A stretch of 64,000 bases of DNA from Eledone cirrhosa (lineage: Eukaryota), in contig CAXHJY010000096.1 of the NCBI GenBank assembly GCA_964016885.1, positions 2,108,001 to 2,172,000 of the forward strand, in the 5' to 3' direction. Position numbers and translations under genes: made by a program. The notes under the pieces are model-generated. The model did no database searches and was not told the DNA's origin. It worked only from the letters and a program-made list of their open reading frames with translations. Of the stretch, positions 1 to 64,000 are shown one piece after another; the stretch's first letter is position 1, and each line of letters begins with the position of its first letter.

Positions 1-3000
1 TCAGGCGGAGATTGTAAAAAAAATCAGGGGGGAGATAATTTGTAAAAAAATCAGGGGGAGATAATTTGTAAAAAATAATCAGGGGGAGATAATTTGTAAA
101 AAAATTCAAGGGGAGATAATTTCCAGCCGTCCAAGGGGAGATAATTTCCCGCCAGCCAAGGGAAGATAATATTTAAAAAAATTAGGCGGAGATAATTTGT
201 AAAAAAAATCAGGGGGAGATAATTTGTAAAAAAATCAGGGGGAGATAATTTGTAAAAAAAATCAGGGGGAGATAATTTGTAAAAAAAATCATGGGGAGAT
301 AATTTGTAAAAAAAAATCAGGGGTAGATAATTTGTAAAAAAAAATCAGGGGGAGATAATTTGTAAAAAAAAATCAGGGGGAGATAATTTGTAAAAAAAAT
401 CAAGGGGAGATAATATCCAGCCGTCCAAGGAGAGATAATTTAAAAAAAAAATGAGGCGGAGATAATTTGTAAAAAAAAAATCAGGGGGAGTTAATTTGTA
501 AAAAAAAATGAGGGGGAGATAATTTGTAAAAAAAATCAAGGGGAGATAATTTCCAGCCGTCCAAGGGGAGATAATTTTCAGCCGTCCAAGGAGAGGTAAT
601 TTCTAGCCGTCCAAGGGGAGATAATTTCCAGCCGTCCAAGGGGAGGTAATTTCCAGCCGTCCAAGGGGAGATAATTTAAAAAAAAAAATCAGGCGGAGAT
701 AATTTGTAAAAAAAATCAAGGGGAGATAATTTGCAGCCGTCCAAGGGGAGATAATTTTCAGTCGTCCAAGGAGAGGTAATTTCTAGCCGTCCAAGGGGAG
801 ATAATTTCCAGCCGTCCAAGGGGAGATAATTTCCAGCCGTCCAAGGGGAGATAATTTTTTTTAAAAAATCAGGCGGAGATAATTTGTAAAAAAAATCAGG
901 GGGAGATAATTTGTAAACAAAATCAGGGGGAGATAATTTGTAAAAAAAAATCAGGGGGAGATAATTTGTAAAAAAAATTAGGCGTAGATAATTTGTAAAA
1001 AAAAATCAGGGGGAGATAATTTGTAAAAAAAAATCAGGGGGAGATAATTTGTTTAAAAAATCAAGGGGAGATAATTTGCAGCCGTCCAAGGGGAGATAAT
1101 TTTCAGCCGTCCAAGGAGAGGTAATTTCTAGCCGTTCAAGGGGAGATAATTTCCAGCCGTCCAAGGGGAGATAATTTTTTTTAAAAAATCAGGCGGAGAT
1201 AATTTGTAAAAAAAAATCAGGGGGAGATAATTCGTAAAAAAAAATCAGGGGGAGATAATTTGTAAAAAAAAATCAGGGGGAGATAATTTGTAAAAAAAAT
1301 CAAGGGGAGATAATTTCCAGCCGTCCAAGGGGAGGTAATATCTAGCCGTCCAAGGGGAGATAATTTCCAGCCGTCCAAGGGGAGATAATTTCCAGCCGTC
1401 CAAGGGGAGATAATTTCCAGCTGTCCAAGGAGACATATTTTCCAGCCGTCCAAGGCGAGGTAATTTCTAGCCGTCCAAGGAGAGATTAATTCCAGCCTCC
1501 AAGGGGAGATAATTTCCAGCCAGCCAAGGGGAGATAATTTGTAAAAAAATCAGGGGGAGATAATTTGTAAAAAATATCAGGGAGATAATTTGTAAAAAAA
1601 AATCAGGGGGAGATAATTTGTAAAAAAAATCAGGGGGAGATAATTTGTAAAAAAAAATCAGGGGGAGATAATTTGTAAAAAAAATCAAGGGGAGATAATT
1701 TCCAGCCGTCCAAGGGGAGATAATTTTCAGCCGTCCAAGGAGAGGTAATTTCTAACCGTCCGAGGAGAGATAATTTCCAGCCGTCCAAGGGGAGATAATT
1801 TCCAGCCGTCCAAGGGGAGATAATTTCCAGCCGTCCAAGGAGACATATTTTCCAGCCGTCCAAGGAGAGGTAATTTCTAGCCGTCCAAGGGGAGATAAAT
1901 TCCAGCCTCCAAGGGGAGATAATTTCCAGCCAGCCAAGGGGAGATAATTTGTAAAAAAATCAGGGGGAGATAATTTGCAAAAAAAATCAGGGGGAGATAA
2001 TTTGTAAAAAAAATCAGGGGGAGATAATTTGTAAAAAATAATCAGGGGGAGATAATTTCCAGCCGTCCAAGGGAAGATAATTTCCAGCCCTCCAAGGGGC
2101 TATAATTTCCAGTGTCCAAGGGGAGATAATTTCCAGCCAGCGAAGGGGAGATAATTTTTTTTTAAAAATCATTGGGAGATTTGTAAAAAAAATCAGGGGG
2201 AGATAATTTGTAAAAAAAATCAAGGGGAGATAATTTCCAGCCGTCCAAGGGGAGGTAATATCTAGCCGTCCAAGGGTAGATAATTTCCAGCCGTCCAACG
2301 GGAGATAATTTCCAGCCGTCCAAGGGTAGATAATATCCAGCCGCCCAAGGACATATTTTCCAGCCGTCCAAGGAGAGGTAATTTCTAGCCGTCCAAGGGG
2401 AGATAATTTCCAGCCGTCCAAGGGTAGATAATATCCAGCCGTCCAAGGACATATTTTCCAGCCGTCCAAGGAGAGGTAATTTCTAGCCGTCCAAGGGGAG
2501 ATAAATTCCAGCCTCCAAGGGGAGATAATTTCCAGCCAGCCAAGGGGAGATAATTTGTAAAAAAATCAGGGGGAGATAATTTGTAAAAAAAATCAGGGGG
2601 AGATAATTTGTAAAAAAAAATCAGGGGGAGATAATTTGTAAAAAAAAATCAGGGTGAGATAATTTGCAAAAAAAATCAGGGGGAGATAATTTGTAAAAAA
2701 AATCAGGGGTAGATAATTTGTAAAAAAAAATCAGGGGGAGATAATTTGTAAAAAAAAATCAGGGGGAGATAATTTGTAAAAAAAATCAAGGGGAGATAAT
2801 TTCCAGCCGTCCAAGGAGAGATAATTTTAAAAAAAATCAGGCGGAGATAATTTGTAAAAAAAAATCAGGGGGAGATAATTTGTAAAAAAAATCAGGGGGA
2901 GATAATTTGTAAAAAAAAATCAGGGGTAGATAATTTGTAAAAAAAAATCAGGGGGAGATAATTTGTAAAAAAAAATCAGGAGGAGATAATTTGTAAAAAA

Positions 3001-6000
3001 AATCAAGGGGAGATAATTTCCAGCCGTCCAAGGAGAGATAATTTAAAAAAAAATCAGGCGGAGATAATTTGTAAAAAAAAATCAGGGGGAGATAATTTGT
3101 AAAAAAATCAGGGGGAGATAATTTGTAAAAAAAAAAATCAGCGGGAGATAATTTGTAAAAAAAATCAGGGGGAGATAATTTGTAAAAAAAATCAGGGGTA
3201 GATAATTTGTAAAAAAAAATCAGGGGGAGATAATTTGTAAAAAAAAATCAGGGGGAGATAATTTGTAAAAAAAATGAAAGGGGAGATAATATCCAGCCGT
3301 CCAAGGGGAGATAATTTCCAGCCGTCCAAGGGGAGATAATTTCCAGCCGTCCAAGGGGAGATAATTTCCATCCTTCCAAGGGGATATAATTTCCAGCCGT
3401 CCAAGGGGAGATAATTTCCATCCTTCCAAGGGGATATAATTTCCAGCCGTCCAAGGGGAGATAATTTTCAGCCGTCCAAGGAGAGGTAATTTCTAGCCGT
3501 CCAAGGAGAGATAATTTCCAGCCGTCCAAGGGGAGATAATTTCCAGCCGTCCAAGGGGAGATAATTTCCAGCCGTCCAAGGAGACATATTTTCCAGCCGT
3601 CCAAGGAGAGGTAATTCCTAGCCGTCCAAGGGGAGATAAATTCCAGCCTCCAAGGGGAGATAATTTCCAGCCAGCCAAGGGGAGATAATTTGTAAAAAAA
3701 ATCAGGGGGAGATAATTTGTAAAAAAAATCAGGGGGAGATAATTTGTAAAAAAAAATCAGGGGTAGATAATTTGTAAAAAATAATCAGGGGGACATAATT
3801 TGTAAAAAAAATCAAGGGGAGATAATTTCCAGCCGTCCAAGGGGAGATAATTTTCAGCCGTCCAAGGGGAGATAATTTCCCGCCAGCCAAGGGAAGATAA
3901 TATTTAAAAAAATTAGGCGGAGATAATTTGTAAAAAAAATCAGGGGGAGATAATTTGTAAAAAAATCAGGGGGAGATAATTTGTAAAAAAAATCAGGGGG
4001 AGATAATTTGTAAAAAAATCAGTGGGAGATAATTTGTAAAAAAAAATCAGGGGGAGATAATTTGTAAAAAAAATCAAGGGGAGATAATTTCCAGCCGTCC
4101 AAGGGAAGATAATTTCCAGCCCTCCAAGGGGCTATAATTTCCAGCGTCCAAGGGGAGATAATTTCCAGCCAGCGAAGGGGAGATAATTTTTTTTAAAAAA
4201 TCATTGGGAGATTTGTAAAAAAAATCAGGGGGAGATAATTTGTAAAAAAAATCAAGGGGAGATAATTTCCAGCCGTCCAAGGGGAGGTAATATCTAGCCG
4301 TCCAAGGGGAGATAATTTCCAGCCGTCCAAGGGGAGATAATTTCCAGCCGTCCAAGGGTAGATAATATCCAGCCGTCCAAGGACATATTTTCCAGCCGTC
4401 CAAGGAGAGGTAATTTCTAGCCGTCCAAGGGGAGATAAATTCCAGCCTCCAAGGTGAGATAATTTCCAGCCAGCCAAGGGGAGATAATTTGTAAAAAAAT
4501 CAGGGGGAGATAATTTGTAAAAAAAATCAGGGGGAGATAATTTGTAAAAAAAAATCAGGGGGAGATAATTTGTAAAAAAAAATCAGGGGGAGATAATTTG
4601 TAAAAAAAAATCAGGGGGAGATAATTTGTAAAAAAATCAAGGGGAGATAATTTCCAGCCGTCCAAGGGGAGATAATTTTCAGCCGTCCAAGGGGAGATAA
4701 TTTCCCGCCAGCCAAGGGAAGATAATATTTGAAAAAATCAGGCGGAGATAATTTGTAAAAAAAATCAGGGGGAGATAATTTGTAAAAAAATCAGGGGGAG
4801 ATAATTTGTAAAAAAAAAATCAGGGGGAGATAATTTGTAAAAAGAATCAGGGGGAGATAATTTGTAAAAAAAAATCAGGGGTAGATAAATTGTAAAAAAA
4901 AATCAGGGGGAGATAATTTGTAAAAAAAATCAGGGGGAGATAATTTGTAAAAAAAATGAAAGGGGAGATAATATCCAGCCGTCCAAGGGGAGATAATTTC
5001 CAGCCGTCCAAGGGGAGATAATTTCCAGCCGTCCAAGGGGAGATAATTTCCATCCTTCCAAGGGGATATAATTTCCAGCCGTCCAAGGGGAGATAATTTC
5101 CCGCCAGCCAAGGGAAGATAATTTTTAAAATAATCAGGCGGAGATTGTAAAAAAAATCAGGGGGGAGATAATTTGTAAAAAAATCAGGGGGAGATAATTT
5201 GTAAAAAAAAATCAGGGGGAGATAATTTGTAAAAAATAATCAGGGGGAGATAATTTGTAAAAAAAAATCAAGGGGAGATAATTTCCAGCCGTCCAAGGGG
5301 AGATAATTTCCCGCCAGCCAAGGGAAGATAATATTTAAAAAAATTAGGCGGAGATAATTTGTAAAAAAAATCAGGGGGAGATAATTTGTAAAAAAATCAG
5401 GGGGAGATAATTTGTAAAAAAAATCAGGGGGAGATAATTTGTAAAAAAATTCATGGGGAGATAATTTGTAAAAAAAAATCAGGGGTAGATAATTTGTAAA
5501 AAAAAATCAGGGGGAGATAATTTGTAAAAAAAAATCAGGGGGAGATAATTTGTAAAAAAAATCAAGGGGAGATAATTTCCAGCCGTCCAAGGGGAGATAA
5601 TTTTCAGCCGTCCAAGGAGAGGTAATTTCTAGCCGTCCAAGGGGAGATAATTTCCAGCCGTCCAAGGGGAGGTAATTTCCAGCCGTCCAAGGGGAGATAA
5701 TTTAAAAAAAAAAATCAGGCGGAGATAATTTGTAAAAAAAATCAAGGGGAGATAATTTGCAGCCGTCCAAGGGGAGATAATTTTCAGTCGTCCAAGGAGA
5801 GGTAATTTCTAGCCGTCCAAGGGGAGATAATTGCCAGCCGTCCAAGGGGAGATAATTTCCAGCCGTCCAAGGGGAGATAATTTTTTTTTAAAAATCAGGC
5901 GGAGATAATTTGTAAAAAAAATCAGGGGGAGATAATTTGTAAACAAAATCAGGGGGAGATAATTTGTAAAAAAAAATCAGGGGGAGATAATTTGTAAAAA

Positions 6001-9000
6001 AAATCATGGAGAGATAATTTCCAGCCGTCCAAGGTGAGATAATTTCCAGCCGTCCAAGGAGACATATTTTCCAGCCGTCCAAGGCGAGGTAATTTCTAGC
6101 CGTCCAAGGGGAGATAAATTCCAGCCTCCAAGGGGAGATAATTTCCAGCCAGCCAAGTGGAGATAATTTGTAAAAAAATCAGGGGGAGATAATTTGTAAA
6201 AAATATCAGGGAGATAATTTGTAAAAAAAAATCAGGGGGAGATAATTTGTAAAAAAAATCAGGGGGAGATAATTTGTAAAAAAAAATCAGGGGGAGATAA
6301 TTTGTAAAAAAAATCAAGGGGAGATAATTTCCAGCCGTCCAAGGGGAGATAATTTTCAGCCGTCCAAGGGGAGATAATTTCCCGCCAGCCAAGGGAAGAT
6401 AATATTTAAAAAAATCAGGCGGAGATAATTTGTAAAAAAAATCAGGGGGAGATAATTTGTAAAAAAATCAGGGGGAGATAATTTGTAAAAAAAAAATCAG
6501 GGGGAGATAATTTGTAAAAAAAATCAGGGGGAGATAATTTGTAAAAAAAAATCAGGGGTAGATAATTTGTAAACAAATATCAGGGGGAGATAATTTGTAA
6601 AAAAAAATCAGGGGGAGATAATTTGTAAAAAAAATGAAAGTGGAGATAATATCCAGCCGTCCAAGGGGAGATAATTTCCAGCCGTCCAAGGGGATATAAT
6701 TTCCAGCCGTCCAAGGGGAGATAATTTCCATCCTTCCAAGGGGATATAATTTCCAGCCGTCCAAGGGGAGATAATTTCCCGCCAGCCAAGGGAAGATAAT
6801 TTTTAAAAAAATCAGGCGGAGATTGTAAAAAAAATCAGGGGGGAGATAATTTGTAAAAAAATCAGGGGGAGATAATTTGTAAAAAATAATCAGGGGGAGA
6901 TAATTTGTAAAAAAATTCAAGGGGAGATAATTTCCAGCCGTCCAAGGGGAGATAATTTCCCGCCAGCCAAGGGAAGATAATATTTAAAAAAATTAGGCGG
7001 AGATAATTTGTAAAAAAATCAGGGGGAGATAATTTGTAAAAAAAATCAGGGGGAGATAATTTGTAAAAAAAATCATGGGGAGATAATTTGTAAAAAAAAA
7101 TCAGGGGTAGATAATTTGTAAAAAAAAATCAGGGGGAGATAATTTGTAAAAAAAAATCAGGGGGAGATAATTTGTAAAAAAAAATCAAGGGGAGATAATA
7201 TCCAGCCGTCCAAGGAGAGATAATTTTAAAAAAAAATGAGGCGGAGATAATTTGTAAAAAAAAAATCAGGGGGAGTTAATTTGTAAAAAAAAATGAGGGG
7301 GAGATAATTTGTAAAAAAAATCAAGGGGAGATAATTTCCAGCCGTCCAAGGGGAGATAATTTTCAGCCGTCCAAGGAGAGGTAATTTCTAGCCGTCCAAG
7401 GGGAGATAATTTCCAGCCGTCCAAGGGGAGGTAATTTCCAGCCGTCCAAGGGGAGATAATTTTAAAAAAAAAATCAGGCGGAGATAATTTGTAAAAAAAA
7501 TCAAGGGGAGATAATTTGCAGCCGTCCAAGGGGAGATAATTTTCAGTCGTCCAAGGAGAGGTAATTTCTAGCCGTCCAAGGGGAGATAATTTCCAGCCGT
7601 CCAAGGGGAGATAATTTCCAGCCGTCCAAGGGGAGATAATTTTTTTAAAAAAATCAGGCGGAGATAATTTGTAAAAAAAATCAGGGGGAGATAATTTGTA
7701 AACAAAATCAGGGGGAGATAATTTGTAAAAAAAAATCAGGGGGAGATAATTTGTAAAAAAAATTAGGCGTAGATAATTTGTAAAAAAAAATCAGGGGGAG
7801 ATAATTTGTAAAAAAAAATCAGGGGGAGATAATTTGTTTAAAAAATCAAGGGGAGATAATTTGCAGCCGTCCAAGGGGAGATAATTTTCAGCCGTCCAAG
7901 GAGAGGTAATTTCTAGCCGTTCAAGGGGAGATAATTTCCAGCCGTCCAAGGGGAGATAATTTCCAGCCGTCCAAGGGGAGATAATTTTTTTTAAAAAATC
8001 AGGCGGAGATAATTTGTAAAAAAAAATCAGGGGGAGATAATTCGTAAAAAAAAATCAGGGGGAGATAATTTGTAAAAAAAAATCAGGGGGAGATAATTTG
8101 TAAAAAAAATCAAGGGGAGATAATTTCCAGCCGTCCAAGGGGAGGTAATATCTAGCCGTCCAAGGGGAGATAATTTCCAGCCGTCCAAGGGGAGATAATT
8201 TCCAGCCGTCCAAGGGGAGATAATTTCCAGCCGTCCAAGGAGACATATTTTCCAGCCGTCCAAGGCGAGGTAATTTCTAGCCGTCCAAGGGGAGATTAAT
8301 TCCAGCCACCAAGGGGAGATAATTTCCAGCCAGCCAAGGGGAGATAATTTGTAAAAAAATCAGGGGGAGATAATTTGTAAAAAATATCAGGGAGATAATT
8401 TGTAAAAAAAAATCAGGGGGAGATAATTTGTAAAAAAAATCAGGGGGAGATAATTTGTAAAAAAAAATCAGGGGGAGATAATTTGTAAAAAAAATCAAGG
8501 GGAGATAATTTCCAGCCGTCCAAGGGGAGATAATTTTCAGCCGTCCAAGGAGAGGTAATTTCTAACCGTCCGAGGAGAGATAATTTCCAGCCCTCCAAGG
8601 GGCTATAATTTCCAGTGTCCAAGGGGAGATAATTTCCAGCCAGAGAAGGGGAGATAATTTTTTTTAAAAAATCATTGGGAGATTTGTAAAAAAAATCAGG
8701 GGGAGATAATTTGTAAAAAAAATCAAGGGGAGATAATTTCCAGCCGTCCAAGGGGAGGTAATATCTAGCCGTCCAAGGGGAGATAATTTCCAGCCGTCCA
8801 AGGGGAGATAATTTCCAGCCGTCCAAGGGTAGATAATATCCAGCCGCCCAAGGACATATTTTCCAGCCGTCCAAGGAGAGGTAATTTCTAGCCGTCCAAG
8901 GGGAGATAAATTCCAGCCTCCAAGGGGAGATAATTTCCAGCCAGCCAAGGGGAGATAATTTGTAAAAAAATCAGGGGGAGATAATTTGTAAAAAAAATCA

Positions 9001-12000
9001 GGGGGATATAATTTGTAAAAAAAAATCAGGGGGAGATAATTTGTAAAAAAAAATCAGGGGGAGATAATTTGCAAAAAAAATCAGGGGGAGATAATTTGTA
9101 AAAAAAAATCAGGGGTAGATAATTTGTAAAAAAAAATCAGGGGGAGATAATTTGTAAAAAAAAATCAGGGGGAGATAATTTGTAAAAGAAATCAAGGGGA
9201 GATAATTTCCAGCCGTCCAAGGAGAGATAATTTTAAAAAAAATCAGGCGGAGATAATTTGTAAAAAAAAATCAGGGGGAGATAATTTGTAAAAAAAATCA
9301 GGGGGAGATAATTTGTAAAAAAAAATCAGGGGTAGATAATTTGTAAAAAAAAATCAGGGGGAGATAATTTGTAAAAAAAATCAGGGGGAGATAATTTGTG
9401 AAAAAAATCAAGGGGAGATAATTTCCAGCCGTCCAAGGAGAGATAATTTTAAAAAAAATCAGGCGGAGATAATTTGTAAAAAAAAATTAGGGGGAGATAA
9501 TTTGTAAAAAAAAATCAGGGGGAGATAATTTGTAAAAAAAATCAAGGGGAGATAATTTCCAGCCGTCCAAGGGGAGATAATTTTCAGCCGTCCAAGGGGA
9601 GATAATTTCCCGCCAGCCAAGGGAAGATAATATTCAAAAAAATCAGGCGGAGATAATTTGTAAAAAAAATCAGGGGGAGATAATTTGTAAAAAAATCAGG
9701 GGGAGATAATTTGTAAAAAAAAATCAGGGGTAGATAATTTGTAAAAAAAAATCAGGGGGAGATAATTTGTAAAAAAAAATCAGGAGGAGATAATTTGTAA
9801 AAAAAATCAAGGGGAGATAATTTCCAGCCGTCCAAGGAGAGATAATTTAAAAAAAAATCAGGCGGAGATAATTTGTAAAAAAAAATCAGGGGGAGATAAT
9901 TTGTAAAAAAATCAGGGGGAGATAATTTGTAAAAAAAAAAATCAGGGGGAGATAATTTGTAAAAAAAATCAGGGGGAGATAATTTGTAAAAAAAATCAGG
10001 GGTAGATAATTTGTAAAAAAAAATCAGGGGGAGATAATTTGTAAAAAAAAATCAGGGGGAGATAATTTGTAAAAAAAATGAAAGGGGAGATAATATCCAG
10101 CCGTCCAAGGGGAGATAATTTCCAGCCGTCCAAGGGGAGATAATTTCCAGCCGTCCAAGGGGAGATAATTTCCATCCTTCCAAGGGGATATAATTTCCAG
10201 CCGTCCAAGGGGAGATAATTTCCATCCTTCCAAGGGGATATAATTTCCAGCCGTCCAAGGGGAGATAATTTTCAGCCGTCCAAGGAGAGGTAATTTCTAG
10301 CCGTCCAAGGAGAGATAATTTCCAGCCGTCCAAGGGGAGATAATTTCCAGCCGTCCAAGGGGAGATAATTTCCAGCCGTCCAAGGAGACATATTTTCCAG
10401 CCGTCCAAGGAGAGGTAATTCCTAGCCGTCCAAGGGGAGATAAATTCCAGCCTCCAAGGGGAGATAATTTCCAGCCAGCCAAGGGGAGATAATTTGTAAA
10501 AAAAATCAGGGGGAGATAATTTGTAAAAAAAATCAGGGGGAGATAATTTGTAAAAAAAAATCAGGGGTAGATAATTTGTAAAAAATAATCAGGGGGAGAT
10601 AATTTGTAAAAAAAATCAAGGGGAGATAATTTCCAGCCGTCCAAGGGGAGATAATTTTCAGCCGTCCAAGGGGAGATAATTTCCCGCCAGCCAAGGGAAG
10701 ATAATATTTAAAAAAATTAGGCGGAGATAATTTGTAAAAAAAATCAGGGGGAGATAATTTGTAAAAAAATCAGGGGGAGATAATTTGTAAAAAAAATCAG
10801 GGGGAGATAATTTGTAAAAAAATCAGGGGGAGATAATTTGTAAAAAAAAATCAGGGGGAGATAATTTGTAAAAAAAATCAAGGGGAGATAATTTCCAGCC
10901 GTCCAAGGGAAGATAATTTCCAGCCCTCCAAGGGGCTATAATTTCCAGCGTCCAAGGGGAGATAATTTCCAGCCAGCGAAGGGGAGATAATTTTTTTTAA
11001 AAAATCATTGGGAGATTTGTAAAAAAAATCAGGGGGAGATAATTTGTAAAAAAAATCAAGGGGAGATAATTTCCAGCCGTCCAAGGGGAGGTAATATCTA
11101 GCCGTCCAAGGGGAGATAATTTCCAGCCGTCCAAGGGGAGATAATTTCCAGCCGTCCAAGGGTAGATAATATCCAGCCGTCCAAGGACATATTTTCCAGC
11201 CGTCCAAGGAGAGGTAATTTCTAGCCGTCCAAGGGGAGATAAATTCCAGCCTCCAAGGTGAGATAATTTCCAGCCAGCCAAGGGGAGATAATTTGTAAAA
11301 AAATCAGGGGGAGATAATTTGTAAAAAAAATCAGGGGGAGATAATTTGTAAAAAAAAATCAGGGGGAGATAATTTGTAAAAAAAAATCAGGGGGAGATAA
11401 TTTGTAAAAAAAAATCAGGGGGAGATAATTTGTAAAAAAATCAAGGGGAGATAATTTCCAGCCGTCCAAGGGGAGATAATTTTCAGCCGTCCAAGGGGAG
11501 ATAATTTCCCGCCAGCCAAGGGAAGATAATATTTGAAAAAATCAGGCGGAGATAATTTGTAAAAAAAATCAGGGGGAGATAATTTGTAAAAAAATCAGGG
11601 GGAGATAATTTGTAAAAAAAAAATCAGGGGGAGATAATTTGTAAAAAGAATCAGGGGGAGATAATTTGTAAAAAAAAATCAGGGGTAGATAAATTGTAAA
11701 AAAAAATCAGGGGGAGATAATTTGTAAAAAAAATCAGGGGGAGATAATTTGTAAAAAAAATGAAAGGGGAGATAATATCCAGCCGTCCAAGGGGAGATAA
11801 TTTCCAGCCGTCCAAGGGGAGATAATTTCCAGCCGTCCAAGGGGAGATAATTTCCATCCTTCCAAGGGGATATAATTTCCAGCCGTCCAAGGGGAGATAA
11901 TTTCCCGCCAGCCAAGGGAAGATAATTTTTAAAATAATCAGGCGGAGATTGTAAAAAAAATCAGGGGGGAGATAATTTGTAAAAAAATCAGGGGGAGATA

Positions 12001-25249: not shown

Positions 25250-25675
25250 CAAGGGGAGATAATTTCCAGCCGTCCAAGGGGAGATAATTTTCAGCCGTCC
25301 AAGGAGAGGTAATTTCTAGCCGTCCGAGGAGAGATAATTTCCAGCCGTCCAAGGGGAGATAATTTCCATCCTTCCAAGGGGATATAATTTCCAGCCGTCC
25401 AAGGGGAGATAATTTCCATCCTTCCAAGGGGATATAATTTCCAGCCGTCCAAGGGGAGATAATTTTCAGCCGTCCAAGGAGAGGTAATTTCTAGCCGTCC
25501 AAGGAGAGATAATTTCCAGCCGTCCAAGGGGAGATAATTTCCAGCCGTCCAAGGGGAGATAATTTCCAGCCGTCCAAGGAGACATATTTTCCAGCCGTCC
25601 AAGGAGAGGTAATTCCTAGCCGTCCAAGGGGAGATAAATTCCAGCCTCCAAGGGGAGATAATTTCCAGCCAGCCA
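25250..25675 (+). repeat. Example long run of type-B monomers (~17 x 25 bp)
   Basis: Consecutive CAAGGGGAGATAATTTCCAGCCGTC units with ordered variants (TTTTCAG, GGAGAGGTAATTTCTAG, CCATCCTTCC, GGGGATATAA, GGAGACATATTTT). Confidence 0.95.
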
Positions 25676-53600: not shown

Positions 53601-56600
53601 AAAAATCAGGCGGAGATAATTTGTAAAAAAAATCAAGGGGAGATAATTTGCAGCCGTCCAAGGGGAGATAATTTTCAGTCGTCCAAGGAGAGGTAATTTC
53701 TAGCCGTCCAAGGGGAGATAATTGCCAGCCGTCCAAGGGGAGATAATTTCCAGCCGTCCAAGGGGAGATAATTTTTTTTAAAAAATCAGGCGAAGATAAT
53801 TTGTAAAAAAAATCAGGGGGAGATAATTTGTAAACAAAATCAGGGGGAGATAATTTGTAAAAAAAAATCAGGGGTAGATAATTTGTAAAAAAAAATCAGG
53901 GGTAGATGAATTGTAAAAAAAAATCAGGGGGAGATAATTTGTAAAAAAAATCAGGGGGAGATAATTTGTAAAAAAAATGAAAGGGGAGATAATATCCAGC
54001 CGTCCAAGGGGAGATAATTTCCAGCCGTCCAAGGGGAGATAATTTCCAGCCGTCCAAGGGGAGATAATTTCCATCCTTCCAAGGGGATATAATTTCCAGC
54101 CGTCCAAGGGGAGATAATTTCCCGTCAGCCAAGGGAAGATAATATTTAAAAAAATTAGGCGGAGATAATTTGTAAAAAAAATCAGGGGGAGATAATTTGT
54201 AAAAAATCAGGGGGAGATAATTTGTAAAAAAAATCAGGGGGAGATAATTTGTAAAAAAAATCATGGGGAGATAATTTGTAAAAAAAAATCAGGGGTAGAT
54301 AATTTGTAAAAAAAAATAAGGGGGAGATAATTTGTAAAAAAAAATCAGGGGGAGATAATTTGTAAAAAAAATCAAGGGGAGATAATTTCCAGCCGTCCAA
54401 GGGGAGATAATTTTCAGCCGTCCAAGGAGAGGTAATTTCTAGCCGTCCAAGGGGAGATAATTTCCAGCCGTCCAAGGGGAGGTAATTTCCAGCCGTCCAA
54501 GGGGAGATAATTTAAAAAAAAAAATCAGGCGGAGATAATTTGTAAAAAAAATCAAGGGGAGATAATTTGCAGCCGTCCAAGGGGAGATAATTTTCAGTCG
54601 TCCAAGGAGAGGTAATTTCTAGCCGTCCAAGGGGAGATAATTGCCAGCCGTCCAAGGGGAGATAATTTCCAGCCGTCCAAGGGGAGATAATTTTTTTTAA
54701 AAAATCAGGCGGAGATAATTTGTAAAAAAAATCAGGGGGAGATAATTTGTAAACAAAATCAGGGGGAGATAATTTGTAAAAAAAAATCAGGGGTAGATAA
54801 TTTGTAAAAAAAAATCAGGGGGAGATAATTTGTAAAAAAAAATCAGGGGGAGATAATTTGTAAAAAAAATCAAGGGGAGATAATTTCCAGCCGTCCAAGG
54901 GGAGATAATTTTCTGCCGTCCAAGGAGAGGTAATTTCTAGCCGTCCAAGGGGAGATAATTTCCAGCCGTCCAAGGGGAGGTAATTTCCAGCCGTCCAAGG
55001 GGAGATAATTTTTAAAAAAAAATCAGGCGGAGATAATTTGTAAAAAAAATCAAGGGGAGATAATTTGCAGCCGTCCAAGGGGAGATAATTTTCAGTCGTC
55101 CAAGGAGAGGTAATTTCTAGCCGTCCAAGGGGAGATAATTGCCAGCCGTCCAAGGGGAGATAATTTCCAGCCGTCCAAGGGGAGATAATTTTTTTTAAAA
55201 AATCAGGCGGAGATAATTTGTAAAAAAAATCAGGGGGAGATAATTTGTAAACAAAATCAGGGGGAGATAATTTGTAAAAAAAAATCAGGGGGAGATAATT
55301 TGTAAAAAAAATCATGGAGAGATAATTTCCAGCCGTCCAAGGGGAGATAATTTCCAGCCTTCCAAGGAGACATATTTTCCAGCCGTCCAAGGCGAGGTAA
55401 TTTCTAGCCGTCCAAGGGGAGATAAATTCCAGCCTCCAAGGGGAGATAATTTCCAGCCAGCCAAGTGGAGATAATTTGTAAAAAAATCAGGGGGAGATAA
55501 TTTGTAAAAAATATCAGGGAGATAATTTGTAAAAAAAAATCAGGGGGAGATAATTTGTAAAAAAAATCAGGGGGAGATAATTTGTAAAAAAAAATCAGGG
55601 GGAGATAATTTGTAAAAAAAATCAAGGGGAGATAATTTCCAGCCGTCCAAGGGGAGATAATTTTCAGCCGTCCAAGGGGAGATAATTTCCCGCCAGCCAA
55701 GGGAAGATAATATTTAAAAAAATCAGGCGGAGATAATTTGTAAAAAAAATCAGGGGGAGATAATTTGTAAAAAAATCAGGGGGAGATAATTTGTAAAAAA
55801 AAAATCAGGGGGAGATAATTTGTAAAAAAAATCAGGGGGAGATAATTTGTAAAAAAAAATCAGGGGTAGATAATTTGTAAACAAAAATCAGGGGGAGATA
55901 ATTTGTAAAAAAAAATCAGGGGGAGATAATTTGTAAAAAAAATGAAAGGGGAGATAATATCCAGCCGTCCAAGGGGAGATAATTTCCAGCCGTCCAAGGA
56001 GACATATTTTCCAGCCGTCCAAGGAGAGGTAATTCCTAGCCGTCCAAGGGGAGATAAATTCCAGCCTCCAAGGGGAGATAATTTGTAAAAAAAATCAGGG
56101 GGAGATAATTTGTAAAAAAAATCAGGGGGAGATAATTTGTAAAAAAAATCAGGGGGAGATAATTTGTAAAAAAAAATCAGGGGTAGATAATTTGTAAAAA
56201 ATAATCAGGGGGAGATAATTTGTAAAAAAAATCAAGGGGAGATAATTTCCAGCCGTCCAAGGGGAGATAATTTTCAGCCGTCCAAGGGGAGATAATTTCC
56301 CGCCAGCCAAGGGAAGATAATATTTAAAAAAATTAGGCGGAGATAATTTGTAAAAAAAATCAGGGGTAGATAATTTGTAAAAAAATCAGGGGGAGATAAT
56401 TTGTAAAAAAAATCAGGGGGAGATAATTTGTAAAAAAAATCAGGGGGAGATAATTTGTAAAAAAAAATCAGGGGGAGATAATTTGTAAAAAAATTCAAGG
56501 GGAGATAATTTCCAGCCGTCCAAGGGAAGATAATTTCCAGCCCTCCAAGGGGCTATAATTTCCAGCGTCCAAGGGGAGATAATTTCCAGCCAGCGAAGGG

Positions 56601-59600
56601 GAGATAATTTTTTTTAAAAAATCATTGGGAGATTTGTAAAAAAAATCAGGGGGAGATAATTTGTAAAAAAAATCAAGGGGAGATAATTTCCAGCCGTCCA
56701 AGGGGAGGTAATATCTAGCCGTCCAAGGGGAGATAATTTCCAGCCGTCCAAGGGGAGATAATTTCCAGCCGTCCAAGGGTAGATAATATCCAGCCGTCCA
56801 AGGACATATTTTCCAGCCGTCCAAGGAGAGGTAATTTCTAGCCGTCCAAGGGGAGATAAATTCCAGCCTCCAAGGTGAGATAATTTCCAGCCAGCCAAGG
56901 GGAGATAATTTGTAAAAAAATCAGGGGGAGATAATTTGTAAAAAAAATCAGGGGGAGATAATTTGTAAAAAAAAATCAGGGGGAGATAATTTGTAAAAAA
57001 AAATCAGGGGGAGATAATTTGTAAAAAAAAATCAGGGGGAGATAATTTGTAAAAAAATCAAGGGGAGATAATTTCCAGCCGTCCAAGGGGAGATAATTTT
57101 CAGCCGTCCAAGGGGAGATAATTTCCCGCCAGCCAAGGGAAGATAATATTTGAAAAAATCAGGCGGAGATAATTTGTAAAAAAAATCAGGGGGAGATAAT
57201 TTGTAAAAAAATCAGGGGGAGATAATTTGTAAAAAAAAAATCATGGGGAGATAATTTGTAAAAAAAATCAGGGGGAGATAATTTGTAAAAAAAAATCAGG
57301 GGTAGATAAATTGTAAAAAAAAATCAGGGGGAGATAATTTGTAAAAAAAATCAGGGGGAGATAATTTGTAAAAAAAATGAAAGGGGAGATAATATCCAGC
57401 CGTCCAAGGGGAGATAATTTCCAGCCGTCCAAGGGGAGATAATTTCCAGCCGTCCAAGGGGAGATAATTTCCATCCTTCCAAGGGGATATAATTTCCAGC
57501 CGTCCAAGGGGAGATAATTTCCCGCCAGCCAAGGGAAGATAATTTTTAAAAAAATCAGGCGGAGATTGTAAAAAAAATCAGGGGGGAGATAATTTGTAAA
57601 AAAATCAGGGGGAGATAATTTGTAAAAAAAAATCAGGGGGAGATAATTTGTAAAAAATAATCAGGGGGAGATAATTTGTAAAAAAAAATCAAGGGGAGAT
57701 AATTTCCAGCCGTCCAAGGGGAGGTAATATCTAGCCGTCCAAGGGGAGATAATTTCCAGCCGTCCAACGGGAGATAATTTCCAGCCGTCCATGGGTAGAT
57801 AATATCCAGCCGCCCAAGGACATATTTTCCAGCCGTCCAAGGAGAGGTAATTTCTAGCCGTCCAAGGGGAGATAATTACAGCCGTCCAAGGGTAGATAAT
57901 ATCCAGCCGTCCAAGGACATATTTTCCAGCCGTCCAAGGAGAGGTAATTTCTAGCCGTCCAAGGGGAGATAAATTCCAGCCTCCAAGGGGAGATAATTTC
58001 CAGCCAGCCAAGGGGAGATAATTTGTAAAAAAATCAGGGGGAGATAATTTGTAAAAAAAATCAGGGGGAGATAATTTGTAAAAAAAAATCAGGGGGAGAT
58101 AATTTGTAAAAAAAAATCAGGGGGAGATAATTTGCAAAAAAAATCAGGGGGAGATAATTTGTAAAAAAAAATCAGGGGTAGATAATTTGTAAAAAAAAAT
58201 CAGGGGGAGATAATTTGTAAAAAAAAATCAGGGGGAGATAATTTGTAAAAAAAATCAAGGGGAGATAATTTCCAGCCGTCCAAGGGAAGATAATTTCCAG
58301 CCCTCCAAGGGGCTATAATTTCCAGCGTCCAAGGGGAGATAATTTCCAGCCAGCGAAGGGGAGATAATTTTTTTTAAAAAATCATTGGGAGATTTGTAAA
58401 AAAAATCAGGGGGAGATAATTTGTAAAAAAAATCAAGGGGAGATAATTTCCAGCCGTCCAAGGGGAGGTAATATCTAGCCGTCCAAGGGGAGATAATTTC
58501 CAGCCGTCCAACGGGAGATAATTTCCAGCCGTCCATGGGTAGATAATATCCAGCCGCCCAAGGACATATTTTCCAGCCGTCCAAGGAGAGGTAATTTCTA
58601 GCCGTCCAAGGGGAGATAATTTCCAGCCGTCCAAGGGTAGATAATATCCAGCCGTCCAAGGACATATTTTCCAGCCGTCCAAGGAGAGGTAATTTCTAGC
58701 CGTCCAAGGGGAGATAAATTCCAGCCTCCAAGGGGAGATAATTTCCAGCCAGCCAAGGGGAGATAATTTGTAAAAAAATCAGGGGGAGATAATTTGTAAA
58801 AAAAATCAGGGGGAGATAATTTGTAAAAAAAAATCAGGGGGAGATAATTTGTAAAAAAAAATCAGGGGGAGATAATTTGCAAAAAAAATCAGGGGGAGAT
58901 AATTTGTATAAAAAAATCAGGGGTAGATAATTTGTAAAAAAAAACAGGGGGAGATAATTTGTAAAAAAAAATCAGGGGGAGATAATTTGTAAAAAAAATC
59001 AAGGGGAGATAATTTCCAGCCGTCCAAGGAGAGATAATTTAAAAAAAAAATCAGGCGGAGATAATTTGTAAAAAAAAATCAGGGGGAGATAATTTGTAAA
59101 AAAAATCAGGGGGAGATAATTTGTAAAAAAAAATCAGGGGTAGATAATTTGTAAAAAAAAATCAGGGGGAGATAATTTGTAAAAAAAATCAAGGGGAGAT
59201 AATTTCCAGCCGTCCAAGGAGAGATAATTTAAAAAAAAATCAGGGGGAGATAATTTGTAAAAAAAATCAAGGGGAGATAATTTCCAGCCGTCCAAGGGGA
59301 GATAATTTTCAGCCGTCCAAGGGGAGATAATTTCCCGCCAGCCAAGGGAAGATAATATTCAAAAAAATCAGGCGGAGATAATTTGTAAAAAAAATCAGGG
59401 GGAGATAATTTGTAAAAAAATCAGGGGGAGATAATTTGTAAAAAAAAAAATCAGGGGGAGATAATTTGTAAAAAAAATCAGGGGGAGATAATTTGTAAAA
59501 AAAAATCAGGGGTAGATAATTTGTAAAAAAAAATCAGGGGGAGATAATTTGTAAAAAAAAATCAGGGGGAGATAATTTGTAAAAAAAATGAAAGGGGAGA

Positions 59601-62600
59601 TAATATCCAGCCGTCCAAGGGGAGATAATTTCCAGCCGTCCAAGGGGAGATAATTTCCAGCCGTCCAAGGGGAGATAATTTCCATCCTTCCAAGGGGATA
59701 TAATTTCCAGCCGTCCAAGGGGAGATAATTTCCATCCTTCCAAGGGGATATAATTTCCAGCCGTCCAAGGGGAGATAATTTTCAGCCGTCCAAGGAGAGG
59801 TAATTTCTAGCCGTCCAAGGAGAGATAATTTCCAGCCGTCCAAGGGGAGATAATTTCCAGCCGTCCAAGGGGAGATAATTTCCAGCCGTCCAAGGAGACA
59901 TATTTTCCAGCCGTCCAAGGAGAGGTAATTCCTAGCCGTCCAAGGGGAGATAAATTCCAGCCTCCAAGGGGAGATAATTTCCAGCCAGCCAAGGGGAGAT
60001 AATTTGTAAAAAAAATCAGGGGGAGATAATTTGTAAAAAAAATCAGGGGGAGATAATTTGTAAAGAAATCAGGGGGAGATAATTTGTAAAAAAAAATCAG
60101 GGGGAGATAATTTGTAAAAAAAATCAGGGGGAGATAATTTGTAAAAAAAAATCAGGGGGAGATAATTTGTAAAAAAAATCAAGGGGAGATAATTTCCAGC
60201 CGTCCAAGGGAAGATAATTTCCAGCCCTCCAAGGGGCTATAATTTCCAGCGTCCAAGGGGAGATAATTTCCAGCCAGCGAAGGGGAGATAATTTTTTTAA
60301 AAAAATCATTGGGAGATTTGTAAAAAAATCAGGGGGAGATAATTTGTAAAAAAAATCAAGGGGAGATAATTACCAGCCGTCCAAGGGGAGGTAATATCTA
60401 GCCGTCCAAGGGGTGATAATTTCCAGCCGTCCAAGGGGAGATAATTTCCAGCCGTCCAAGGGTAGATAATATCCAGCCGTCCAAGGACATATTTTCCAGC
60501 CGTCCAAGGAGAGGTAATTTCTAGCCGTCCAAGGGGAGATAAATTCCAGCCTCCAAGGTGAGATAATTTCCAGCCAGCCAAGGGGAGATAATTTGTAAAA
60601 AAAAATCAGGGGGAGATAATTTGTAAAAAAAATCAAGGGGAGATAATTTCCAGCCGTCCAAGGGGAGATAATTTTCAGCCGTCCAAGGGGAGATAATTTC
60701 CCGCCAGCCAAGGGAAGATAATATTTAAAAAAATCAGGCGGAGATAATTTGTAAAAAAAATCAGGGGGAGATAATTTGTAAAAAAATCAGGGGGAGATAA
60801 TTTGTAAAAAAAAAATCAGGGGGAGATAATTTGTAAAAAAAATCAGGGGGAGATAATTTGTAAAAAAAAATCAGGGGTAGATGAATTGTAAAAAAAAATC
60901 AGGGGGAGATAATTTGTAAAAAAAATCAGGGGGAGATAATTTGTAAAAAAAATGAAAGGGGAGATAATATCCAGCCGTCCAAGGGGAGATAATTTCCAGC
61001 CGTCCAAGGGGAGATAATTTCCAGCCGTCCAAGGGGAGATAATTTCCATCCTTCCAAGGGGATATAATTTCCAGCCGTCCAAGGGGAGATAATTTCCCGC
61101 CAGCCAAGATAAGATAATATTTAAAAAAATTAGGCGGAGATAATTTGTAAAAAAAATCAGGGGGAGATAATTTGTAAAAAATCAGGGGGAGATAATTTGT
61201 AAAAAAAATCAGGGGGAGATAATTTGTAAAAAAAATCATGGGGAGATAATTTGTAAAAAAAAATCAGGGGTAGATAATTTGTAAAAAAAAATCAGGGGGA
61301 GATAATTTGTAAAAAAAAATCAGGGGGAGATAATTTGTAAAAAAAATCAAGGGGAGATAATTTCCAGCCGTCCAAGGGGAGATAATTTTCAGCCGTCCAA
61401 GGAGAGGTAATTTCTAGCCGTCCAAGGGGAGATAATTTCCAGCCGTCCAAGGGGAGGTAATTTCCAGCCGTCCAAGGGGAGATAATTTTAAAAAAAAAAT
61501 CAGGCGGAGATAATTTGTAAAAAAAATCAAGGGGAGATAATTTGCAGCCGTCCAAGGGGAGATAATTTTCAGTCGTCCAAGGAGAGGTAATTTCTAGCCG
61601 TCCAAGGGGAGATAATTGCCAGCCGTCCAAGGGGAGATAATTTCCAGCCGTCCAAGGGGAGATAATTTTTTTTAAAAAATCAGGCGGAGATAATTTGTAA
61701 AAAAAATCAGGGGGAGATAATTTGTAAACAAAATCAGGGGGAGATAATTTGTAAAAAAAAATCAGGGGTAGATAATTTGTAAAAAAAAATCAGGGGGAGA
61801 TAATTTGTAAAAAAAAATCAGGGGGAGATAATTTGTAAAAAAAATCAAGGGGAGATAATTTCCAGCCGTCCAAGGGGAGATAATTTTCAGCCGTCCAAGG
61901 AGAGGTAATTTCTAGCCGTCCAAGGGGAGATAATTTCCAGCCGTCCAAGAGGAGGTAATTTCCAGCCGTCCAAGGGGAGATAATTTTAAAAAAAAATCAG
62001 GCGGAGATAATTTGTAAAAAAAATCAAGGGGAGATAATTTGCAGCCGTCCAAGGGGAGATAATTTTCAGTCGTCCAAGGAGAGGTAATTTCTAGCCGTCC
62101 AAGGGGAGATAATTGCCAGCCGTCCAAGGGGAGATAATTTCCAGCCGTCCAAGGGGAGATAATTTTTTTTAAAAAATCAGGCGGTGATAATTTGTAAAAA
62201 AAATCAGGGGGAGATAATTTGTAAACAAAATCAGGGGGAGATAATTTGTAAAAAAAAATCAGGGGGAGATAATTTGTAAAAAAAATCATGGAGAGATAAT
62301 TTCCAGCCGTCCAAGGGGAGATAATTTCCAGCCTTCCAAGGAGACATATTTTCCAGCCGTCCAAGGCGAGGTAATTTCTAGCCGTCCAAGGGGAGATAAA
62401 TTCCAGCCTCCAAGGGGAGATAATTTCCAGCCAGCCAAGTGGAGATAATTTGTAAAAAAATCAGGGGGAGATAATTTGTAAAAAATATCAGGGAGATAAT
62501 TTGTAAAAAAAAATCAGGGGGAGATAATTTGTAAAAAAAATCAGGGGGAGATAATTTGTAAAAAAAAATCAGGGGGAGATAATTTGTAAAAAAAATCAAG

Positions 62601-62970
62601 GGGAGATAATTTCCAGCCGTCCAAGGGGAGATAATTTTCAGCCGTCCAAGGGGAGATAATTTCCCGCCAGCCAAGGGAAGATAATATTTAAAAAAATCAG
62701 GCGGAGATAATTTGTAAAAAAAATCAGGGGGAGATAATTTGTAAAAAAATCAGGGGGAGATAATTTGTAAAAAAAAAATCAGGGGGAGATAATTTGTAAA
62801 AAAAATCAGGGGGAGATAATTTGTAAAAAAAAATCAGGGGTAGATAATTTGTAAACAAAAATCAGGGGGAGATAATTTGTAAAAAAAAATCAGGGGGAGA
62901 TAATTTGTAAAAAAAATGAAAGGGGAGATAATATCCAGCCGTCCAAGGGGAGATAATTTCCAGCCGTCCA
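47700..62970 (+). repeat. HOR domain III, 7,895/7,894-bp period falling to 6,974 bp
   Basis: ORF offsets: 48379/56274, 48600/56495, 49766/57661 and 50360/58255 = 7895; 51612/59506 through 53398/61292 = 7894; 55404/62378 = 6974. Private markers are CCATGGGTAG (49894, 50638, 57789, 58533), GTAGATGAATT and GATAATTAC. Confidence 0.92.
52960..54800 (+). repeat. 919-bp tandem duplication present only in the first domain-III copy
   Basis: ORFs 52949/53868 and 52977/53896 are offset by 919. The marker GTAGATGAATT lies at ~52983 and ~53902, and AATTGCCAGCC at ~53720 and ~54639. Confidence 0.88.
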
Positions 62971-64000
62971 AGGGGATATAATTTCCAGCCGTCCAAGGGG
63001 AGATAATTTCCATCCTTCCAAGGGGATATAATTTCCAGCCGTCCAAGGGGAGATAATTTCCCGCCAGCCAAGGGAAGATAATTTTTAAAAAAATCAGGCG
63101 GAGATTGTAAAAAAAATCAGGGGGGAGATAATTTGTAAAAAAATCAGGGGGAGATAATTTGTAAAAAATAATCAGGGGGAGATAATTTGTAAAAAAATTC
63201 AAGGGGAGATAATTTCCAGCCGTCCAAGGGGAGATAATTTCCCGCCAGCCAAGGGAAGATAATATTTAAAAAAATCAGGCGGAGATTGTAAAAAAAATCA
63301 GGGGGGAGATAATTTGTAAAAAAATCAGGGGGAGATAATTTGTAAAAAAAATCAGGGGGAGATAATTTGTAAAAAAATCAGGGGGAGATAATTTGTAAAA
63401 AAAATCAGGGGGAGATAATTTGTAAAAAAAATCATGGGGAGATAATTTGTAAAAAGAAATCAGGGGTAGATAATTTGTAAAAAAAAATCAGGGGGAGATA
63501 ATTTGTAAAAAAAAATCAGGGGGAGATAATTTGTAAAAAAAATCAAGGGGAGATAATATCCAGCCGTCCAAGGAGAGATAATTTCAAAAAAAAATGAGGC
63601 GGAGATAATTTGTAAAAAAAAAATCAGGGGGAGTTAATTTGTAAAAAAAAATGAGGGGGAGATAATTTGTAAAAAAAATCAAGGGGAGATAATTTCCAGC
63701 CGTCCAAGGGGAGATAATTTTCAGCCGTCCAAGGAGAGGTAATTTCTAGCCGTCCAAGGGGAGATAATTTCCAGCCGTCCAAGGGGAGGTAATTTCCAGC
63801 CGTCCAAGGGGAGATAATTTAAAAAAAAAAATCAGGCGGAGATAATTTGTAAAAAAAATCAGGGGGAGATAATTTGTAAACAAAATCAGGGGGAGATAAT
63901 TTGTAAAAAAACATCAGGGGGAGATAATTTGTAAAAAAAATTAGGCGTAGATAATTTGTAAAAAAAAATCAGGGGGAGATAATTTGTAAAAAAAAATCAG
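62378..64000 (+). repeat. Return to domain-I-type sequence (homologous to ~6100-7800 / ~12900-14500)
   Basis: ORFs 62378, 62834 and 62862 match 12900, 13356 and 13384 with the same internal spacing (456 bp between the first two). Markers GGGGGAGTTAATT, TGAGGGGG and TTAGGCGTAG follow in domain-I order. Confidence 0.85.

What the first reader, a model, noticed from the sequence alone, without database searches (positions are those of the whole stretch)
1..64000. Four-level hierarchy: alpha-satellite-like multi-kb HORs built from 25-27-bp monomers
Seen: monomers form cassettes, cassettes form 0.4-2.2 kb duplications, and these form 6.3-7.9 kb HORs of ~240-300 monomers with constant offsets over kilobases. 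Established: HOR organisation typifies primate alpha-satellite and several plant and animal centromeres, usually with ~150-180-bp monomers and far fewer monomers per HOR. Inference: this may be a centromeric or pericentromeric array under ongoing large-unit amplification.
Basis: partly seen in the sequence, partly recalled or inferred. Interest (0 to 1): 0.7.

Follow-up and report, generated by a model that had tools for sequence, protein, structure and literature searches.

The report
Two-monomer megabase satellite, serially duplicated
This window lies inside a 2.9-million-base array built from alternating blocks of two short (25-28 base) repeats; its multi-kilobase spacings are real, but each unit was seen only two or three times in a row and spacings nearby run from 0.4 to 232 kb, so they likely record successive single duplications rather than a fixed alpha-satellite-style unit, and a centromere role is possible but untested.

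Summary
The nesting is real: 2,455 monomers of two classes form 209 cassettes (mean 305 bp), and near-identical copies sit at offsets of 6,334, 6,804, 7,360, 7,546 and 7,895 bp. The longest exact repeat is 3,390 bp, against 655-745 bp in cassette shuffles. But these are not alpha-type HORs. In 799 kb sampled, no unit exceeded 2.6 strict (3 approximate) tandem copies. Periods ran from 0.4 to 24 kb, with further repeats at 31, 87, 104.5 and 232 kb. Fresh junctions share a median of 30 bp, and 16 of 20 join like monomers. Best reading: a satellite growing by successive in-register duplications that re-cut an inherited, array-specific cassette order, like nested tandem repeats or plant local HORs. 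The family (about 15 Mb) forms interstitial arrays on at least 7 of 22-27 chromosome-scale contigs, mostly three of the four giant ones. A centromere-region location is plausible; kinetochore function is untested. The 232-kb duplicate showed no difference in 18.8 kb and may be an assembly artefact. The scan noted the same pattern on other satellites of this genome, and probably this family's edge layer.

The parts
1..64000 (+). Interior of a two-monomer (A/B) satellite array; window = G000:C123:2,108,001-2,172,000, and the array appears to fill the 2.92-Mb contig after its first 1.35 kb
   Evidence: 12 of 12 interior 2-kb samples and the last 10 kb of C123 are this satellite
3290..3688 (+). 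Example cassette half: the 16-monomer landmark B block, which recurs at a median of about 4 kb (CV 0.50) in 264 kb
   Evidence: type F there
2885..13967 (+). Partial duplication, offset 6,804 bp (2,885-7,163 matches 9,689-13,967)
20562..29061 (+). Older partial match, offset about 6,334 bp (20,562-22,727 matches 26,895-29,061; 8 exact pieces)
21769..33192 (+). Partial duplication, offset 7,546 bp (21,769-25,646 matches 29,315-33,192)
25825..40552 (+). Complete two-copy tandem duplication, period 7,360 bp, 283 monomers, 2 substitutions
33184..33208 (+). Junction monomer of the 7,360-bp duplication: a hybrid of two B variants joined in 8 bp of shared sequence, found once in the window
38581..43130 (+). 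Two-copy tandem duplication, period 2,238 bp, 86 monomers, 1 substitution
45744..46589 (+). Two-copy tandem duplication, period 411 bp (16 monomers)
47680..61686 (+). Partial duplication, offset 7,894/7,895 bp (47,680-53,792 matches 55,575-61,686)
55142..64000 (+). First copy of an identical two-copy tandem duplication of 8,974 bp (344 monomers); the second copy lies just beyond the window

Best explanation
The window is part of a megabase satellite of alternating A and B monomer blocks whose kilobase spacings likely arise from successive single in-register tandem duplications and deletions, not from amplification of one fixed higher-order unit. Shown: duplicated blocks of 0.4-24 kb occur as two, at most three, adjacent copies; their junctions carry only 5-102 bp of exact overlap and mostly join A to A or B to B; cassette order is strongly non-random and differs between arrays. 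Inferred: a broken or stalled fork, or an unequal sister exchange, re-pairs with a like monomer some kilobases away and copies the intervening block once. Later events cut across earlier ones, so periods nest and drift while the inherited cassette order (locally about 20-25 cassettes, 6-7 kb) survives in fragments. Rare exchanges in the 13-bp core shared by A and B create new cassette junctions. The array is likely non-coding heterochromatin from a centromere region, most likely belonging with the C1 279.2-Mb array; kinetochore function is untested.
For: Strict scan of 799 kb in 8 regions: 30 distinct tandem periods from 411 to 24,016 bp, 3 of 30 within 6.3-7.9 kb, maximum 2.61 copies. Approximate cassette-level scan: 3 copies in 3 of 7 regions, fewer than 3 in 4 of 7. 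Longer offsets of 31.4, 86.6, 104.5 and 232.3 kb. Junction overlap median 30 bp (n=20) versus 17 bp for random in-register like-monomer pairs, p=0.002; both edges in the same monomer class in 16 of 20 versus 35% in the null, p=5e-5. A-to-B switches pass through the hybrid monomer in 827 of 877 cases, so junctions are mostly inherited. One 780-bp duplication on C3 has a 13-bp overlap and a new direct A-to-B junction. Next-cassette entropy 1.51 bits versus 3.65 shuffled. 150-mer sharing with the window: 0.66-0.80 for C1 279.24 Mb, C387 and four of the five C123 stretches tested (one of these five, at 0.04 Mb, gave 0.22), at most 0.09 for the 11 samples from other arrays. No Rfam match in 1-15,000. 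Break-induced replication changes human array length (PMC11034957, abstract only).
Against: The strict scan misses interrupted older duplications. Among the 12 distinct offsets under 40 kb with span/offset of at least 0.5 (chains of 2.5 kb or more only), 4 lie in 6.3-7.9 kb and 7 in 5.3-9.0 kb. Landmark cassettes recur more evenly than random (CV 0.43-0.61 for the best ones), and C387 has a 7.0-kb unit three times. So a preferred or ancestral unit of about 7 kb is not excluded. Only about 0.8 of an estimated 15 Mb was analysed at depth. The junction tests use events found by an in-register method and a simple null. Sequence alone cannot separate break-induced replication from unequal exchange. 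No read-level check of the duplications was made.
Confidence: 0.75

Rival explanations
1. A decayed canonical HOR: a unit of about 24 cassettes (7 kb) was once amplified into a long regular array, as in alpha satellite, and later duplications and deletions eroded it into today's structural variants.
For: One dominant cycle in the cassette graph; three copies of a 7.0-kb unit on C387; three copies at 7.4 kb on C3; a 5,203-bp unit recurring on C2; 5-cassette words shared between C123 at 1.0 and 2.1 Mb (23-40%).
Against: The C387 unit occurs only 2 times (within 4 edits) in 264 kb of C123, and the commonest 20-cassette word covers 14%. C123 at 0.04-0.14 Mb shares only 2-4% of 5-cassette words with the rest. 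No long regular run was seen in any of the 7 regions scanned.
Confidence: 0.2
2. The array is the functional centromere DNA (CENP-A bearing) of its chromosome, and the recent duplications mark kinetochore-associated turnover.
For: Multi-megabase interstitial arrays near the middle of C1, C2 and C3; array-specific subfamilies; older, more diverged layers at two array edges; in humans CENP-A often overlaps zones of recent duplication (10.1101/2021.07.12.452052, passages).
Against: Seen on only 7 of 22-27 chromosome-scale contigs. Under about 0.3 Mb on C4, C5, C7 and C21, and on C4 it lies inside a larger different satellite. C1 has two arrays 27 Mb apart. Several other satellites crowd the same regions. 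Maize HORs are not enriched in CENH3 domains (PMC13011684, abstract).
Confidence: 0.3
3. The largest, most perfect duplications are assembly artefacts (a repeat loop or second haplotype laid in tandem).
For: The 232,283-bp offset holds at 16 of 16 marks, and 2 of 2 sampled 9,422-bp pairs have no mismatch. The 8,974-bp duplicate has no difference. C123 is an unplaced contig almost wholly of satellite.
Against: Most duplicates differ by a few substitutions (7,360: 2; 24,016: 2; 86,585: 2 in 9.4 kb), keep A-tract length variants in register, and have unique hybrid junction monomers. The same pattern holds in arrays placed on C2 and C3. This rival can explain the 232-kb level, hardly the 0.4-8 kb levels.
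Confidence: 0.3

Closest known systems
Human HSat2/HSat3 nested tandem repeats (NTRs) and array macro-repeats (10.1101/2021.07.12.452052; 12 of 16 passages read)
   Same: Short-unit satellite with multi-kilobase repeat units, periodicity that varies along one array, hyper-local expansion, and large macro-repeats in alpha arrays.
   Different: Here discrete 25-28-bp monomers of two classes remain intact and form an intermediate cassette level; HSat2/3 derive from a decayed 5-bp repeat.
Local, low-frequency HORs of maize and Arabidopsis satellites (PMC13011684; abstract and section 'Local HOR classification' read)
   Same: Many different patterns, each local and in few copies, with no dominant HOR.
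   Different: Plant local HORs are mostly a few monomers (3-5 in Arabidopsis) of nucleosome-size units (monomer size recalled); here units hold tens to hundreds of tiny monomers.
Primate alpha-satellite HOR arrays (PMC8122249; 12 of 14 passages read)
   Same: Units far more alike (99.9%) than unlike monomers within them (A versus B differ at 11 of about 26 positions); array-specific patterns; older layers at edges.
   Different: No canonical unit in many tandem copies; monomers 25-28 bp, not 171 bp (recalled); 237-344 monomers per unit versus up to 34 in that review; no CENP-B box match.
Bovine 1.706 satellite (recalled: about 2.35-kb unit made of segments of two related 23-bp repeats; not found in searches)
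   Same: Multi-kilobase unit built from blocks of two short related monomers.
   Different: Recalled as a fixed unit length; here the unit length drifts.
Cichlid centromeres with inverted satellite blocks (PMC13652916; abstract and one results section read)
   Same: On C2 and C3, oppositely oriented arrays lie about 0.2 Mb apart.
   Different: In cichlids the interval is satellite bounded by an inverted element pair; here it is other sequence, and an assembly gap borders one array in both cases, so the orientation is unverified.

Membership tests
Alpha-satellite-type HOR array | Adjacent units far more similar (97-100%) than monomers within a unit | tested here: met
   Units at least 99.88% identical; A and B consensus differ by 11 edits; monomers diverge 5.8-6.6% from class consensus
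Alpha-satellite-type HOR array | One canonical unit repeated head to tail many times | tested here: not met
   Maximum 2.61 strict copies in 799 kb, 3 approximate copies in 772 kb; commonest 20-cassette word covers 14%
Alpha-satellite-type HOR array | Chromosome- or array-specific unit structure | tested here: met
   5-cassette words shared between C123, C2 and C3 samples: 0.00; 150-mer sharing at most 0.09 outside the C123/C387/C1-279 subfamily
Alpha-satellite-type HOR array | About 171-bp monomer with CENP-B boxes | tested here: not met
   Monomers 23-30 bp except 2 of 2,455; 0 exact matches to a recalled CENP-B core pattern, 0.45 expected by chance
Nested tandem repeat / local-HOR satellite | Multi-kilobase periodicities over a short basic repeat that change along the array | tested here: met
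Nested tandem repeat / local-HOR satellite | Many local patterns, each in low copy number | tested here: met
   30 distinct periods, none above 2.61 copies
Centromeric satellite | One array per chromosome on most chromosomes | tested here: inconclusive
   Found on 7 of 22-27 chromosome-scale contigs with one rare-variant probe whose listing covered C1-C122; two arrays on C1; arrays may be missing from the assembly
Centromeric satellite | CENP-A/CENH3 occupancy, methylation dip or primary constriction | not testable with these tools
   No chromatin or cytological data available

The most novel reading that the evidence does not exclude
This A/B mosaic is the centromere DNA of the giant (379-443 Mb) chromosomes of a probably octopod genome, present as paired, oppositely oriented megabase arrays left by chromosome fusions. 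It arose when an older B-only repeat and an A-only repeat merged through their shared 13-bp core, giving a centromere that turns over by scale-free duplication (0.4-232 kb) without any fixed higher-order unit.
Probability: 0.15. Interest if true: 0.62.

Novelty: new member of a known kind. Interest (0 to 1): 0.33.

Why it matters
As structure, it is a clear but ordinary case of nested local duplication in a satellite, and it shows that constant offsets in one 64-kb window do not establish an HOR array. Two things add value. First, the two monomer classes act as built-in markers, so junction rules can be read directly: short overlaps, like-with-like pairing, and rare switches in the shared core. 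Second, the family (about 15 Mb, 0.5% of the assembly) is a concrete candidate for centromere-region DNA on the giant chromosomes of a lineage for which my literature searches listed no centromeric satellite study; A-, B- and subfamily-specific probes make that testable.

Tried and rejected
Fixed four-level HOR: rejected. Chance from low monomer diversity: rejected by shuffles. Coding or structured RNA: longest stop-free stretches 67 aa (+) and 251 aa (-) are expected from stop-poor B blocks; no Rfam match in 1-15,000, the only part scanned; no canonical four-run G-quadruplex pattern. The first junction script missed the large duplications through faulty chaining and was replaced by a monomer-level method. 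A DNA search with 411 bp scored only 13 candidates and was useless for mapping; rare-variant patterns were used instead, each listing only the first 100 matches. The C123 start junction is unique and did not place the contig. Giant dyad on C2 and C3: not accepted, because an N gap borders one array at each switch. Telomere-type repeats beside the arrays: three-unit runs were found in 3 of 201 loci, two chromosome starts and one C7 sample 0.26 Mb from the array. Read-level support for the duplications was not tested. Literature: six searches listed no description of this satellite; only listings were seen for most papers, no supplements were read, and subscription papers are not covered. The bovine 1.706 parallel could not be confirmed. 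The octopus label comes from earlier scan notes and was not tested.

Full report
What the window is. All 64,000 bases are one tandem array on the + strand. It lies at G000:C123:2,108,001-2,172,000 in a 3.0-Gb assembly. C123 is 2,918,891 bp; 12 of 12 interior 2-kb samples, the last 10 kb and 464 kb of longer stretches (window included) are the same satellite, and only the first 1.35 kb is a different repeat. Two chromosome starts carry CCCTAA repeats, which fits an animal. Earlier scan notes call the genome octopus-like; I did not test that.

Levels one and two. A dynamic-programming parse gives 2,455 monomers: B, 25 bp, commonest form TTTCCAGCCGTCCAAGGGGAGATAA (1,199); A, mostly 26-28 bp, TTTGT-A(7-9)-TCAGGGGGAGATAA (1,055); and a hybrid with an A head and a B tail (201). 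A and B share a 13-bp core, GGGGAGATAATTT. Monomers diverge on average 5.8-6.6% from their class consensus, and the two consensuses differ by 11 edits. Runs of A then B form 209 cassettes of 128-647 bp. A-to-B switches pass through the hybrid in 199 of 209 cases in the window and 827 of 877 in 264 kb, so most junctions are inherited copies rather than new events.

Levels three and four. However, each links two copies. Only the 7,360-bp unit is a complete tandem pair (283 monomers, 2 substitutions); 6,334, 6,804, 7,546 and 7,895 cover 34-77% of their offset. By eye, the cassette string shows about three and a half variant copies between 20.5 and 46.5 kb, with periods of 7,546, 7,360 and 9,784 bp.

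The hierarchy does not stop at 8 kb. With 100 kb on each side, pairs of 4.0, 5.3, 6.2, 9.0, 21.6, 24.0 and 31.4 kb appear, and about 28 kb recurs at 104.5 kb with 16 differing monomers. A subfamily marker shows a constant 232,283-bp offset at 16 marks between C123 647 and 1,112 kb; two sampled 9,422-bp pairs had no mismatch, while an 86,585-bp offset had 2. The 232-kb pair is either extremely young or an assembly artefact. A strict scan of 799 kb in 8 regions found 30 distinct tandem periods from 411 to 24,016 bp, 3 of them in 6.3-7.9 kb, and none above 2.61 copies. An approximate cassette-level scan of 7 regions found 3 copies in three regions and fewer in four. The commonest 20-cassette word covers 14% of 264 kb.

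Cassette order is far from random (1.51 versus 3.65 bits) and follows one main cycle with side loops. C387 has a 24-cassette, 7.0-kb unit three times, and C3 has one of 7.4 kb. Of 12 distinct near-tandem offsets under 40 kb, 7 lie between 5.3 and 9.0 kb; that list only holds chains of 2.5 kb or more. So an inherited unit of about 7 kb underlies the array, but in the sampled DNA it is re-cut too often to form a canonical HOR array.

Mechanism. For 20 clean two-copy duplications (overlap 0-150 bp; 10 of the 30 periods were left out for larger or negative overlaps), exact junction overlap was 5-102 bp, median 30, versus 17 for random in-register like-monomer pairs (p=0.002). In 16 of 20 both edges joined monomers of one class, versus 35% in the null (p=5e-5). 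The 7,360-bp junction is a unique hybrid of two B variants sharing 8 bp. A 780-bp duplication on C3 has a 13-bp overlap and a new direct A-to-B junction. Inference: a broken fork or sister chromatid re-pairs with any like monomer nearby and copies the block once; later events overwrite earlier ones. Break-induced replication does alter human arrays (PMC11034957, abstract only), but sequence alone cannot separate it from unequal exchange. Both tests rest on an in-register detection method and simple nulls.

Genome context. A 42-bp B-B motif occurs 19,003 times in the genome and 80 times in the window, which scales to about 15 Mb. A rare-variant probe (first 100 of 153 matches listed, covering C1-C122) hit C1, C2, C3, C4, C5, C7, C21 and C123. 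Of C1-C28, 22 measured over 20 Mb, one 0.8 Mb, and five were not measured. Sampled extents: C1 (443 Mb) 251.19 to about 252.2 Mb on the minus strand and at least 279.16-279.29 Mb on the plus strand; C2 (416 Mb) about 245.75-248.28 minus and 248.50-251.1 plus; C3 (379 Mb) 162.7-165.65 minus and 165.87-167.6 plus; under about 0.3 Mb each on C4, C5, C7 and C21. All are interstitial, at 31-63% of contig length. The window's subfamily is shared with C387 and C1 279.24 Mb (150-mer sharing 0.67 and 0.66) and not with the 11 samples from other arrays (at most 0.09), so C123 likely belongs at C1 279.2 Mb. The opposite orientations on C2 and C3 each border an assembly gap and are unverified.

Origin. 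At the 5' edge of the C3 plus array, 19-bp repeats with long spacers give way to B-like monomers (CCGG form) with AT-rich spacers and then to the A/B satellite; the B-like layer also edges the C1 minus array. C5 holds a diverged array with no B monomer in 394 parsed. These layers suggest, but do not show, that the mosaic arose from B-only and A-only precursors.

Comparison and verdict. Against the alpha-satellite definition (PMC8122249, passages) the array meets unit similarity and array specificity, and fails the canonical many-copy unit, monomer size and CENP-B box. It fits nested tandem repeats with locally varying periods (10.1101/2021.07.12.452052, passages) and low-copy local HORs (PMC13011684, abstract and one section). 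My reading of drifting two-copy duplications was recorded before I saw the earlier notes; notes e1-10309920 and e1-10325877 reach the same view for other satellites of this genome, and the first led me to the NTR paper. Six literature searches listed no description of this repeat. Verdict: observation largely real, the HOR label overstated, a new member of a known kind, with an untested centromere-region role (about 0.6 for centromere-region heterochromatin, 0.3 for kinetochore DNA). Interest 0.33.

Noticed in passing
G000:C123:647,459-1,112,050 (L198-L201): A 232,283-bp tandem duplication with constant offset at 16 marks and no mismatch in 18.8 kb sampled; very recent or an assembly artefact. 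An 86,585-bp offset inside it has 2 mismatches in 9.4 kb.
   Followed up: partly
G000:C2:245.75-251.1 Mb and C3:162.7-167.6 Mb (L118-L133): Two oppositely oriented megabase arrays about 0.2 Mb apart on each chromosome; an N gap borders one array in both cases.
   Followed up: partly
L129-L131 (C3:165.860-165.874 Mb); L135, L137 (C1:252.02-252.2 Mb): Older layers at array edges: 19-bp repeats with 830-1,010-bp spacers, then B-like CCGG-form monomers with 200-400-bp AT-rich spacers, then the A/B satellite.
   Followed up: partly
L075 (C5:64.25 Mb): A diverged array of A-type monomers only, with no B monomer in 394 parsed; possible precursor.
   Followed up: partly
L001:1-1350 (start of C123): A different tandem repeat of about 100 bp with a variable CT microsatellite joins the satellite directly; the junction is unique in the genome.
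   Followed up: partly
L060, L154, L078 (C2:245.3-245.5 and 248.29 Mb); L152, L153 (C3:168.0-168.6 Mb): An 11-14-bp A-tract satellite borders the arrays on both C2 and C3.
   Followed up: no
L138-L143 (C4:139.5-140.8 Mb); L047 (C1:252.3 Mb): A 7-bp satellite spans at least 1.3 Mb on C4 (6 of 6 samples) and encloses the small A/B array; a 9-bp C/A-rich repeat follows the C1 array.
   Followed up: no
L067 (C3:162.6 Mb); L058, L059 (C2:244.0-244.6 Mb); L087-L089, L129 (C3:165.65-165.86 Mb): Several other satellites (about 23 bp, about 200 bp, about 50-85 bp) crowd the same mid-chromosome regions; the first two may be those of notes e1-10309920 and e1-10313858.
   Followed up: no
All A/B samples: B fraction stays at 41-53% and mean cassette length at 222-303 bp in 16 of 16 A/B samples across arrays with different cassette orders.
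   Followed up: no
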